Position numbers: made by a program. Below, piece by piece: positions 44,001 to 45,616 of a DNA stretch of 64,000 nucleotides (position 1 is the stretch's first letter; each line of letters starts with the position of its first letter). This DNA is from Escherichia coli (GTDB lineage Bacteria; Pseudomonadota; Gammaproteobacteria; Enterobacterales; Enterobacteriaceae): NCBI RefSeq assembly GCF_965641715.1, contig NZ_OZ282453.1, one strand, 5' to 3'.

Positions 44001-45616
44001 GACTCACTTCGCCACTGCTGCCGTCATCCAGCCCGGCGAGGATCGCCAGCAAGGTTGACTTACCCGATCCCGACTCGCCCACCAGTGCGATGGTCTCGCC
44101 ACGTTTGACAACCAGCTCAACTCCGGTGAGGATGGAGAGTTCATGCTCCCCCTGACCGACGGACTTCTTAAGATGATGAACTTCAACAATGTTTTCCGCT
44201 GGCATTTGCCCTTCCTGTTCCTGGTCCTGTTAACCTTCCGTGCCGCCGCAGCGGACACGTTATTGATTCTGGGTGATAGCCTGAGCGCCGGGTATCGAAT
44301 GTCTGCCAGCGCGGCCTGGCCTGCCTTGTTGAATGATAAGTGGCAGAGTAAAACGTCGGTAGTTAATGCCAGCATCAGCGGCGACACCTCGCAACAAGGG
44401 CTGGCGCGCCTTCCGGCTCTGCTGAAACAGCATCAGCCGCGCTGGGTGCTGGTTGAACTGGGCGGCAATGACGGTTTGCGTGGTTTTCAGCCACAGCAAA
44501 CCGAGCAAACGCTGCGTCAGATTTTGCAGGATGTCAAAGCCGCCAACGCTGAACCATTGTTAATGCAAATACGTCTGCCTGCAAACTATGGTCGCCGTTA
44601 TAATGAAGCCTTTAGCGCCATTTACCCCAAACTCGCCAAAGAGTTTGATGTTCCGCTGCTGCCCTTTTTTATGGAAGAGGTCTACCTCAAGCCACAATGG
44701 ATGCAGGATGACGGTATTCATCCCAACCGCGACGCCCAGCCGTTTATTGCCGACTGGATGGCGAAGCAGTTGCAGCCTTTAGTAAATCATGACTCATAAA
44801 GCAACGGAGATCCTGACAGGTAAAGTTATGCAAAAATCGGTCTTAATTACCGGATGTTCCAGTGGAATTGGCCTGGAAAGCGCGCTCGAATTAAAACGCC
44901 AGGGTTTTCATGTGCTGGCAGGTTGCCGGAAACCGGATGATGTTGAGCGCATGAACAGCATGGGATTTACCGGCGTGTTGATCGATCTGGATTCACCAGA
45001 AAGTGTTGATCGCGCAGCCGACGAGGTGATCGCCCTGACCGATAATTGTCTGTATGGGATCTTTAACAATGCCGGATTCGGCATGTATGGCCCCCTTTCC
45101 ACCATCAGCCGTGCGCAGATGGAACAGCAGTTTTCCGCCAACTTTTTCGGCGCACACCAGCTCACCATGCGCCTGTTACCCGCGATGTTACCGCACGGTG
45201 AAGGGCGTATTGTGATGACATCATCGGTGATGGGATTAATCTCCACGCCGGGTCGTGGCGCTTACGCGGCCAGTAAATATGCGCTGGAGGCGTGGTCAGA
45301 CGCGTTGCGCATGGAGCTACGCCACAGCGGAATTAAAGTCAGCCTGATCGAACCCGGTCCCATTCGTACTCGCTTCACCGACAACGTCAACCAGACGCAA
45401 AGTGATAAACCAGTCGAAAATCCCGGCATCGCCGCCCGCTTTACGTTGGGACCGGAAGCGGTGGTGGACAAAGTACGCCATGCTTTTATTAGCGAGAAGC
45501 CGAAGATGCGCTATCCGGTAACGCTGGTGACCTGGGCGGTAATGGTGCTTAAGCGCCTGCTGCCGGGGCGCGTGATGGACAAAATATTGCAGGGGTGAGT
45601 TGAAGCGCGCGCTTAA

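What the first reader, a model, noticed from the sequence alone, without database searches (positions are those of the whole stretch)
44173..44205. Divergent tesA and ybbA start codons overlap by about 33 bp
With the assigned starts, the 5' ends of the two divergent genes overlap on opposite strands, leaving no intergenic promoter region. One annotated start may be wrong, or the promoters are embedded in each other's coding sequence.
Basis: seen in the sequence. Interest (0 to 1): 0.15.

Follow-up and report, generated by a model that had tools for sequence, protein, structure and literature searches.

The report
Real head-to-head tesA/ybbA start overlap
The first 30-33 bases of the E. coli genes tesA and ybbA really do overlap on opposite strands; this rare arrangement is already documented, is conserved in related bacteria, and puts each gene's ribosome-binding site, and probably its promoter, inside the other gene.

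Summary
ybbA (- strand, 43519-44205) has one usable start, ATG 44205. tesA (+ strand) starts at one of two tandem ATGs (44173 or 44176). The coding regions therefore overlap head-to-head by 33 or 30 bp.

Neither start looks like an annotation error. All 21 Enterobacterales sequences compared keep at least one tandem ATG. The alternatives are not conserved: TTG 44206 would remove the overlap and ATG 44143 would double it. Synonymous sites vary freely in the flanks (about 1.1 bits) but are nearly frozen in the overlap (about 0.1 bits).

Published data show the consequence. ybbA-strand transcripts start inside or beyond tesA. Antisense RNA over tesA is comparable to its sense RNA. RNase III-cut duplexes map onto the ybbA ribosome-binding site.

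The arrangement is rare (2 divergent overlaps counted in E. coli) but known. It is annotated in K-12, noted in the 2025 YbbAP-TesA structure paper, and listed as a divergent excludon.

Added here: in 80 gammaproteobacterial genomes the genes are always divergent neighbours. In about 65 of the 81 sequences compared the start codons overlap or nearly touch, often as CATG. Whether the overlap regulates anything is untested. Interest is low.

The parts
44173..44799 (+). tesA CDS (thioesterase I / lysophospholipase L1 precursor). Tandem start codons at ATG 44173 and ATG 44176; signal peptide residues 1-26; stop at 44797-44799.
   Evidence: PDB chains 1IVN and 9GE8_T begin at A27, the mature end. 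The ATG at 44176 is kept in 14/14 Enterobacteriaceae and the ATG at 44173 in 9/14; at least one is kept in 21/21 Enterobacterales.
43519..44205 (-). ybbA CDS (ATPase of the YbbAP type VII ABC transporter), start ATG 44205-44203.
   Evidence: In-frame stop codons lie directly upstream of this ATG in Pantoea, Yersinia, Photorhabdus and Providencia. PDB 9GE6-9GE8 use M1-A228.
44173..44205 (.). Head-to-head coding overlap of 33 bp (30 bp if tesA starts at 44176), phase 123:321. tesA M1/M2 (ATG ATG) are the antisense of YbbA H11/H10 (CAT CAT); tesA H11 (CAT) is the antisense of the ybbA ATG.
   Evidence: Third-position entropy is 0.10-0.13 bits in the overlap against 1.06-1.11 in the single-coding flanks. 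Fisher p = 1.2e-5 and 3.3e-4.
44209..44217 (-). ybbA Shine-Dalgarno sequence CAGGAAGGG, encoded as the antisense of tesA signal-peptide codons 13-15 (P-F-L).
   Evidence: Pairing with the anti-SD is -7.0 kcal/mol. tesA synonymous sites in 44206-44220 are constrained. An RNase III duplex maps to 44208-44231.
44105..44133 (+). Predicted tesA promoter inside ybbA codons 25-34: -35 TTGACA (44105-44110), 17-nt spacer, -10 GAGGAT (44128-44133). The predicted transcription start is near 44140. Inferred, not mapped.
   Evidence: Read from the sequence. ybbA third-codon positions 44104, 44107 and 44110 are invariant in 14 Enterobacteriaceae, and the block 44102-44136 is nearly invariant. The stricter consensus scan found no promoter.
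44143..44145 (+). Upstream in-frame ATG of tesA, preceded by the strongest Shine-Dalgarno-like sequence (GGAGAG, 44134-44139). It would give a 218-aa precursor and a 63-bp overlap. It is not universally conserved.
   Evidence: -7.9 kcal/mol. It is absent in Citrobacter sp. FP75 (stop codon upstream), RIT691 and Photorhabdus caribbeanensis. In Rahnella a stop sits directly before the tandem ATGs.
44206..44208 (+). TTG (tesA Leu12), the start chosen by some gene callers (197-aa products). It would remove the overlap. Rejected as the main start.
   Evidence: 197/194-aa database entries; not conserved as a start codon; no Shine-Dalgarno sequence.
44547..44547 (-). Nearest published transcription start on the ybbA strand (Cappable-seq, U00096.2 position 518615, weak), 342 nt upstream of the ybbA ATG and inside tesA. 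Further weak starts lie at 44774 and 44994.
   Evidence: PMC4782308 supplementary GTF. Coordinate conversion checked. A TTGCAG-17-AACAAT motif lies upstream.
44208..44670 (.). Region of tesA in which p19-captured, RNase III-cut sense/antisense RNA duplexes were mapped: 44208-44231, 44274-44304, 44457-44481 and 44646-44670.
   Evidence: PMC7373196 Tables S1b, S1c, S3.

Best explanation
Both annotated starts are essentially right, so tesA and ybbA truly overlap head-to-head by 30-33 bp.

The junction is the enterobacterial form of an old arrangement with no spacer between the tesA(-ybbO) operon and the ybbAP operon. The products of these operons form one complex, YbbAP-TesA.

Because no intergenic DNA exists, each gene's translation-initiation region is written inside the other gene. 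The ybbA Shine-Dalgarno sequence is the antisense of tesA's pyrimidine-rich signal-peptide codons. The tesA leader and start codons are the antisense of ybbA codons 10-22.

The promoters also lie inside the partner. ybbA-strand transcripts begin 340 nt or more upstream, within or beyond tesA, and run antisense through it. The tesA transcript probably begins about 30 nt upstream of its ATG, inside ybbA.

Shown: the sequence facts, the conservation, the double constraint, the antisense RNA, and the RNase III-cut duplexes.

Inferred: the exact tesA start codon, the tesA promoter, and why the junction persists. My reading is that it persists mainly because it is locked in. Any insertion between the start codons would move both ribosome-binding sites away from their start codons. 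I do not think it persists because it acts as a strong switch.
For: Start codons:
- ybbA has a single possible start, with stop codons directly upstream in four genera.
- At least one tandem ATG of tesA is kept in 21/21 Enterobacterales. TTG 44206 and ATG 44143 are not conserved.
- The mature TesA begins at A27, so about 26 residues of signal peptide must be encoded upstream.

Double constraint:
- Variable third positions are 3/11 in the overlap, against 37/39 (ybbA flank) and 33/38 (tesA flank).
- Flanks 44105-44172 and 44206-44220 are also constrained.

Embedded signals:
- The ybbA Shine-Dalgarno sequence pairs at -7.0 kcal/mol inside tesA.
- The tesA initiation region is less structured than shuffled controls (z = +1.44).

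Transcription:
- Cappable-seq starts on the ybbA strand are at window 44547, 44774 and 44994 only.
- Total RNA sense/antisense: tesA 29.7/48.7 RPM; ybbA 21.7/0.5 RPM.
- p19-captured dsRNA: tesA 182-2396 RPM against 6-86 RPM for its neighbours.
- RNase III duplexes are mapped up to 3 nt from the ybbA ATG.
- tesA-ybbA is listed among 16 divergent excludons of MG1655.

Conservation of the junction:
- 80/80 gammaproteobacterial loci have a divergent ybbA next to tesA.
- By rule-based start assignment, about 65 of the 81 sequences (80 loci plus the window) have start codons that overlap or lie within 11 nt of each other.

Functional link: the proteins form a complex.
Against: - No direct initiation-site or N-terminal data for either gene could be retrieved.
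- No transcription start for the tesA strand was found in any held data set.
- The tandem ATGs have only a weak Shine-Dalgarno sequence (-3.2 kcal/mol), while the non-universal ATG 44143 has a strong one (-7.9). Some initiation at 44143 cannot be excluded.
- Frozen synonymous sites alone cannot separate coding constraint from ribosome-binding-site or leader constraint.
- Starts in other species were assigned by rules, not by experiment.
- The lock-in argument is reasoning, not a test.
Confidence: 0.85

Rival explanations
1. Annotation error: tesA really starts at TTG 44206, directly after the ybbA start codon. The genes would then abut without overlapping. The apparent N-terminal 11 codons would be only the tesA leader.
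For: Several gene callers pick this start (197- and 194-aa entries). A start-capable codon is present there in 13/14 Enterobacteriaceae (12 TTG, 1 GTG). Leader or ribosome-binding-site constraint could also freeze the 33 nt.
Against: - There is no Shine-Dalgarno sequence (-1.5 kcal/mol).
- The codon is TGG in Citrobacter werkmanii and a non-start Leu/Phe codon in 7/7 other Enterobacterales. In those, the next start leaves 12 or fewer residues before the cleavage site.
- The product would have a 15-residue signal peptide without the conserved Arg9.
- An ATG is always conserved 10-11 codons upstream, and in Rahnella a stop sits directly before it.
Confidence: 0.04
2. tesA initiates wholly or partly at the upstream in-frame ATG 44143. 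This gives a 36-residue signal peptide and a 63-bp overlap. The mature enzyme would be unchanged.
For: It has the best Shine-Dalgarno match in the region (GGAGAG, -7.9 kcal/mol, 5-nt spacing). An ATG or GTG is present at this position in 12/14 Enterobacteriaceae. 218-aa entries exist in databases. ybbA synonymous sites under this Shine-Dalgarno-like sequence are invariant.
Against: - It is missing in Citrobacter sp. FP75 (stop codon three codons upstream), RIT691, Rahnella (stop directly before the tandem ATGs) and Photorhabdus caribbeanensis.
- If the predicted promoter (TTGACA-17-GAGGAT) is real, transcription would start at about 44140 and the GGAGAG would not be in the mRNA.
- The antisense frame of a gene is expected to be open by chance, because its stop codons correspond to the Leu/Ser codons TTA, CTA and TCA in the sense frame.
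Confidence: 0.12
3. The overlap is a selected regulatory device. The two mRNAs are complementary across both ribosome-binding sites. Transcription and pairing of one would therefore silence the other (excludon-type mutual exclusion), or would tune the TesA:YbbAP ratio.
For: The pair is listed as a divergent excludon. tesA has strong dsRNA capture, and RNase III cuts lie over the ybbA Shine-Dalgarno sequence. The junction is conserved across Gammaproteobacteria. The products work together, so coordinated control would make sense.
Against: - In rnc mutants neither sense RNA rises: tesA 29.7 to 27.2/27.4 RPM and ybbA 21.7 to 13.6/17.1 RPM.
- Partners of one complex are needed together, which is the opposite of mutual exclusion.
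- Conservation is equally explained by lock-in of two embedded ribosome-binding sites.
- No expression data specific to this pair were found.
Confidence: 0.25

Closest known systems
Divergent excludons (overlapping 5' transcripts of neighbouring divergent genes; ExcludonFinder, NAR 2025, PMC12288877)
   Same: The genes are divergent neighbours with overlapping 5' transcript regions and a short or absent intergenic region. dsRNA and RNase III products are present. tesA-ybbA is itself in the published list of 16 for MG1655.
   Different: Here the coding sequences and both ribosome-binding sites overlap, not only untranslated leaders. The products cooperate in one complex. Mutual exclusion was not shown for this pair. 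RNA levels do not rise in rnc mutants.
Divergent mRNA pairs with 5' overlap that give abundant p19-captured dsRNA in E. coli, e.g. asd-yhgN (Huang et al. 2020, PMC7373196)
   Same: It is the same class and the same data set. Thirteen of the top 20 coding clusters are divergent 5' overlaps. tesA shows 182-2396 RPM of captured dsRNA.
   Different: In tesA the duplexes span most of the gene (44208-44670) rather than only the 5' ends. The ybbA-strand RNA therefore behaves as a long antisense leader.
Short co-directional overlaps (ATGA, 4 nt) with translational coupling
   Same: A start codon and its Shine-Dalgarno sequence are embedded in the neighbour's coding sequence. The spacing is compact and conserved, and such pairs often encode subunits of one complex. 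ybbA/ybbP in this window is such a case (43519-43522).
   Different: The genes here are on opposite strands. Ribosomes cannot be handed over, so no translational coupling is possible. Any coupling must act through transcription or RNA pairing.
Divergent (head-to-head) overlapping gene pairs as a class (Lillo & Krakauer 2007; Huvet & Stumpf 2014)
   Same: This pair is a member of the class. Its rarity is attributed to the need to encode initiation signals in the overlap.
   Different: The E. coli overlap is in phase 123:321, which accounts for 25-30% of divergent overlaps. The CATG form seen in other genera is in the commonest phase, 123:213.

Membership tests
Divergent (head-to-head) overlapping protein-coding gene pair | Both partners are real, expressed protein-coding genes on opposite strands. 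| tested here: met
   TesA and YbbA both have solved structures, including the joint complex 9GE8. Thousands of homologues exist.
Divergent (head-to-head) overlapping protein-coding gene pair | The true start codons are placed so that the 5' coding ends share nucleotides. | tested here: met
   The ybbA start is unique. The tandem tesA ATGs are conserved and the alternatives are not. The overlap is under double constraint. Which ATG is used (33 or 30 bp) is unresolved, and no direct initiation data were found.
Divergent (head-to-head) overlapping protein-coding gene pair | The overlap is conserved in related genomes, so it is not a single-genome annotation artefact. | tested here: met
   The 30/33-nt overlap is present in 21/21 Enterobacterales with matching geometry. 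It is 39-78 nt in three others.
Excludon | Transcripts of the two divergent genes overlap. | tested here: met
   This rests on published data looked up here: the ExcludonFinder list, ybbA-strand transcription starts inside tesA/ybbO, antisense RNA over tesA comparable to its sense RNA, and dsRNA capture.
Excludon | The overlapping RNAs are processed by RNase III. | tested here: met
   21-22-nt duplexes with the RNase III signature are listed at four tesA sites (PMC7373196 Table S3).
Excludon | Expression of one gene suppresses the other (mutually exclusive expression). | tested here: inconclusive
   No data specific to this pair were found. Sense RNA of neither gene rises in two rnc mutants, which argues against strong RNase III-dependent repression. 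Transcriptional interference was not examined.
Bidirectional promoter with shared symmetric -10 element | Two divergent transcription starts a fixed short distance apart around one symmetric -10 element, giving non-overlapping transcripts. This definition is recalled from the literature and was not checked here. | tested here: not met
   The transcripts overlap extensively. No promoter-like site was found at the junction.

The most novel reading that the evidence does not exclude
The junction with no spacer may be a selected, ancient module rather than a passive accident. Across Gammaproteobacteria the tesA and ybbA start codons are held in direct contact. They share 2 nt as CATG in 21 genomes of 12 genera and overlap by 30-33 nt in Enterobacterales. 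As a result the two mRNAs are complementary exactly over both ribosome-binding sites. This would couple or balance production of a periplasmic lipid hydrolase and the ABC transporter that feeds it. It would be a way of co-regulating partners encoded on opposite strands, analogous to translational coupling within operons.
Probability: 0.2. Interest if true: 0.45.

Novelty: already known. Interest (0 to 1): 0.2.

Why it matters
For annotation: this is one of very few genuine divergent coding overlaps in E. coli. Gene callers that penalise overlaps truncate TesA to 194-197 aa and remove part of its signal peptide. This pair is a useful check case.

For genome engineering: synonymous recoding, deletions or promoter swaps in the first 70 nt or so of either gene will hit the other gene's start codon, ribosome-binding site or leader. 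For example, the common tesA signal-peptide deletion ('tesA) changes sequence that carries the ybbA Shine-Dalgarno sequence.

For biology: TesA and YbbAP were recently shown to form one complex. Their interlocked start regions are therefore a natural place to look for coordinated expression. No regulatory role has yet been shown.

Tried and rejected
- Consensus sigma-70 and terminator scan of 43700-44700: no promoter-like site and one irrelevant terminator-like site.
- Rfam at E <= 1 on 43000-45500: nothing.
- Folding of both initiation regions: no unusual structure (z = +1.44 and -0.72).
- Searches of supplementary data for direct start-site evidence found no tesA/ybbA entries or no held files:
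  - TRAINSPOTTER N-terminomics
  - Cappable-seq by gene name (only + strand rows up to 1.09 Mb are held, so the tesA strand is missing)
  - Romero et al. 2014
  - ExcludonFinder supplements
  - SMRT-Cappable-seq
  - Retapamulin profiling preprint
  - Thomason et al. 2015, which is not held
- Literature searches for a tesA promoter found only metabolic-engineering papers.
- Counting Pseudomonas as CATG start-sharing was rejected. The likely tesA start is the downstream Met, which has a GGAGAA Shine-Dalgarno sequence in a 10-nt spacer, and P. asuensis has a stop upstream.
- Leaderless transcription from the CATG junction was considered and rejected. Shine-Dalgarno-like motifs sit 6-12 nt upstream of most of these ATGs.

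Full report
**What is in the sequence**

The window is E. coli. It is 99.9% identical to strain PapRG-06-5 and colinear with MG1655, with no difference between 44030 and 44399.

On the - strand, ybbA occupies 43519-44205. Its ATG at 44205 is the first start codon after the upstream stop. The only other in-frame start codon before the Walker A motif sits one codon before that motif.

On the + strand, tesA reads ATG ATG AAC TTC... from 44173 and ends at 44799.

K-12 annotates tesA from the first ATG, giving a 33-bp overlap: 519733-519765 in NC_000913.3. NCBI's pipeline uses the second ATG in other strains, giving 30 bp.

The overlap has a neat symmetry. tesA Met1-Met2 (ATG ATG) are the antisense of YbbA His11-His10 (CAT CAT). 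tesA His11 (CAT) is the antisense of the ybbA start codon.

**Is it more than chance?**

Eleven codons open on both strands mean nothing by themselves. A genuine divergent coding overlap, however, is rare. [quoted passage not shown] Another found 331 divergent against 12,737 co-directional overlaps in 58 genomes. It attributed the deficit to the need to encode initiation signals in the overlap (PMC2174442).

**Are the starts right?**

I collected 80 loci from one genome per species, using a TesA alignment built from representatives spanning about 37-68% identity to E. coli TesA. Every locus has a divergent ybbA next to tesA.

To be independent of start calls, I measured the distance between two fixed points: the first Gly codon of the YbbA Walker A motif and the Gly codon of the TesA GDS motif.

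| Group | Anchor distance (nt) |
|---|---|
| 14 Enterobacteriaceae sequences | 193 |
| 7 other Enterobacterales | 196 |
| Most Vibrio | 194-197 |
| Pseudomonas | 215-216 |

(All.)

In all 21 Enterobacterales with the 193/196 geometry, ybbA starts 42 codons before Walker A. In-frame stops lie directly upstream of that ATG in Pantoea, Yersinia, Photorhabdus and Providencia.

For tesA, the second ATG is kept in 14/14 Enterobacteriaceae and the first in 9/14. Photorhabdus keeps only the first and Pantoea only the second. At least one is always present.

The two alternatives fail:
- **TTG 44206** would remove the overlap and is chosen by some gene callers (197/194-aa entries). It is TGG in Citrobacter werkmanii and a non-start codon in all seven non-Enterobacteriaceae. 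It has no Shine-Dalgarno sequence (-1.5 kcal/mol). It would leave a 15-residue signal peptide.
- **ATG 44143** would give a 63-bp overlap (218-aa entries). It has the best Shine-Dalgarno match (-7.9 kcal/mol). It is missing in four genomes, and in Rahnella a stop codon sits immediately before the tandem ATGs. It may be used in part, but it cannot be the conserved start.

Solved structures of TesA begin at Ala27. This is consistent with cleavage of a signal peptide of about 26 residues that has to be encoded upstream.

**Double constraint**

The data come from an ungapped alignment of 14 Enterobacteriaceae sequences.

| Region | Sites examined | Variable | Mean entropy (bits) |
|---|---|---|---|
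| ybbA-only flank | third codon positions | 37/39 | 1.11 |
| tesA-only flank | third codon positions | 33/38 | 1.06 |
| 33-nt overlap | ybbA third positions | 3/11 | 0.10 |
| 33-nt overlap | tesA third positions | 3/11 | 0.13 |

Fisher p values for overlap against flank are 1.2e-5 and 3.3e-4.

The few substitutions inside the overlap change an amino acid in one or both proteins. For example, ATG to ACG gives TesA M1T and YbbA H11R.

Constraint also extends beyond the overlap:
- About 15 nt upstream of the ybbA ATG (44206-44220). This holds the ybbA Shine-Dalgarno sequence CAGGAAGGG, which pairs at -7.0 kcal/mol.
- About 70 nt upstream of the tesA ATG (44102-44172; 13/22 ybbA third positions variable, p = 9e-4).

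The second block includes an invariant TTTGACAA and GGTGAGGATGGAGAG, kept also in Pantoea and Yersinia. I read this as a tesA promoter: TTGACA, 17 nt, GAGGAT, with a start near 44140. This is inference. The stricter consensus scan reports nothing, and I found no mapped start for that strand.

**Transcription: published evidence**

Cappable-seq rows held for the MG1655 + strand (the ybbA strand) list weak starts at U00096.2 positions 518168, 518388 and 518615, and then none until 523635. After conversion these are window positions 44994, 44774 and 44547. All lie inside ybbO or tesA, and the nearest is 342 nt upstream of the ybbA ATG.

Huang et al. 2020 report the following (PMC7373196).

| Measure | tesA | ybbA | Other neighbours |
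|---|---|---|---|
| Total RNA, wild type, sense/antisense (RPM) | 29.7 / 48.7 | 21.7 / 0.5 | - |
| p19-captured dsRNA, six data sets (RPM) | 182-2396 | 11-86 | 6-35 (ybbO, ybbP) |

They also list RNase III-type 21-22-nt duplexes at window 44208-44231 (over the ybbA Shine-Dalgarno sequence), 44274-44304, 44457-44481 and 44646-44670.

ExcludonFinder lists tesA-ybbA among the 16 divergent excludons of MG1655.

The picture is asymmetric. ybbA-strand RNA runs antisense across most of tesA. tesA RNA reaches only a short way into ybbA.

Neither sense RNA rises in two rnc mutants: tesA 27.2 and 27.4 RPM, ybbA 13.6 and 17.1 RPM. RNase III cleavage is therefore not a major determinant of their levels under those conditions.

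**Wider pattern (new here, rule-based)**

I assigned starts by position, start codon and a simple signal-peptide rule.

| Start-to-start relation | Sequences |
|---|---|
| Overlap of 30-33 nt | 21 Enterobacterales |
| Overlap of 39-78 nt | Brenneria, Pectobacterium and one metagenome-assembled genome |
| Overlap of exactly 2 nt, as the palindrome CATG | 21 genomes of 12 genera |
| Abutting, 0 to -2 nt | Pseudoalteromonas, Aliidiomarina, Pseudidiomarina, a Methylococcaceae genome |
| 10-11-nt spacer holding the tesA Shine-Dalgarno sequence | 11 Pseudomonas |
| Spacer longer than 20 nt (largest 442) | about 12 |

The CATG group includes Vibrio, Salinivibrio, Psychromonas, Rheinheimera, Halomonas, Dokdonella, Cycloclasticus, Marinobacterium and Nitrincola. 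Their anchor distances range from 194 to 305 nt.

Shine-Dalgarno-like motifs lie 6-12 nt upstream of most of these ATGs. That supports them as real starts and argues against leaderless mRNAs.

**How it most likely works**

The antisense of a signal peptide's Leu/Phe/Pro codons is purine-rich. A ribosome-binding site for the divergent gene can therefore sit there at little cost.

Once the two starts touch, any insertion between them displaces both ribosome-binding sites. The junction is then hard to undo.

This lock-in explains the conservation without invoking regulation. It also fits the lack of an rnc effect, and the fact that TesA and YbbAP act together in one complex (PMC12646458).

A regulatory role remains possible and untested. 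It could act through promoter competition, transcriptional interference or pairing between the two ribosome-binding sites.

**Comparison with what is known**

This is a member of the class of divergent overlapping gene pairs. It meets the transcript-overlap and RNase III criteria of an excludon, but mutual exclusion has not been shown for it. It is not a symmetric bidirectional promoter. No RNA family or unusual structure is present.

The overlap itself has been in the K-12 annotation for decades. It is mentioned in the YbbAP-TesA paper ('partially overlaps').

**Verdict**

The overlap is real and conserved, both starts are essentially correct, and the control signals are embedded in the partner gene. 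It is already known and of low general interest. The one modest new observation is how widely the zero-spacer junction is conserved.

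Noticed in passing
L025, L027, L029, L031, L033-L035, L039-L043, L045, L047, L049-L051, L063, L064, L071, L079 (junction about 70-150 nt upstream of locus position 4001): In 21 genomes of 12 non-enterobacterial genera the tesA ATG and the divergent ybbA ATG share two bases as the palindrome CATG. 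This holds even though the N-terminal lengths differ (anchor distances 194-305 nt). Shine-Dalgarno-like motifs precede both starts.
   Followed up: partly
L048, L055, L061, L065, L066, L072, L075, L076, L078, L080, L081: In Pseudomonas the two start codons are separated by only 10-11 nt (CAT GGAGAATCCG ATG). The spacer is essentially the tesA Shine-Dalgarno sequence. An in-frame ATG within CATG also exists but is probably not the start.
   Followed up: partly
window 44102-44136: ybbA synonymous positions under TTTGACAA...GGTGAGGATGGAGAG are nearly invariant in 14 Enterobacteriaceae plus Pantoea and Yersinia. This could be a tesA promoter (TTGACA-17-GAGGAT), the Shine-Dalgarno sequence of the upstream ATG 44143, or both. 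No mapped tesA transcription start was available.
   Followed up: partly
window 44173-44799 (tesA), published RNA data: Antisense RNA over tesA (48.7 RPM) is about twice the ybbA sense signal (21.7 RPM) in wild type. The ybbA-strand RNA may be attenuated or processed before the ybbA coding region, or part of it may be a separate antisense RNA. No terminator-like site lies between 44547 and 44205 on the - strand.
   Followed up: partly
window 44789-44799: The ybbO start codon (44789) lies 11 nt inside the end of tesA and has no detectable Shine-Dalgarno sequence (0 kcal/mol). This suggests that ybbO translation depends on ribosomes finishing tesA.
   Followed up: no
window 43519-43522: ybbA stop and ybbP start overlap as ATGA, with a strong Shine-Dalgarno sequence (GCAGGAGGA, -10.3 kcal/mol) inside the end of ybbA. 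This is the usual translational-coupling layout.
   Followed up: no
protein database entries P0001-P0120: Database TesA entries from close relatives have at least nine different lengths (194, 197, 204, 207, 208, 209, 210, 214, 218 aa, plus long fusions). Much of the spread reflects callers choosing different starts around the overlap, although the Salmonella 204- and 214-aa forms differ at the C terminus. The 194/197-aa forms lack part of the signal peptide.
   Followed up: partly
L024 (Candidatus Pantoea persica) and L028 (Vibrio mexicanus): In L024 the ybbA reading frame breaks after about 22 codons and no Walker A motif is found in frame. In L028 the tesA N-terminal region carries an in-frame stop and the anchor distance is off by 1 nt. 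These may be pseudogenes or sequencing errors.
   Followed up: no
window 43783-43785: YbbA residue 141 is Ala in this strain and Asp in the K-12 protein used for the cryo-EM structures (GCC vs GAC).
   Followed up: no
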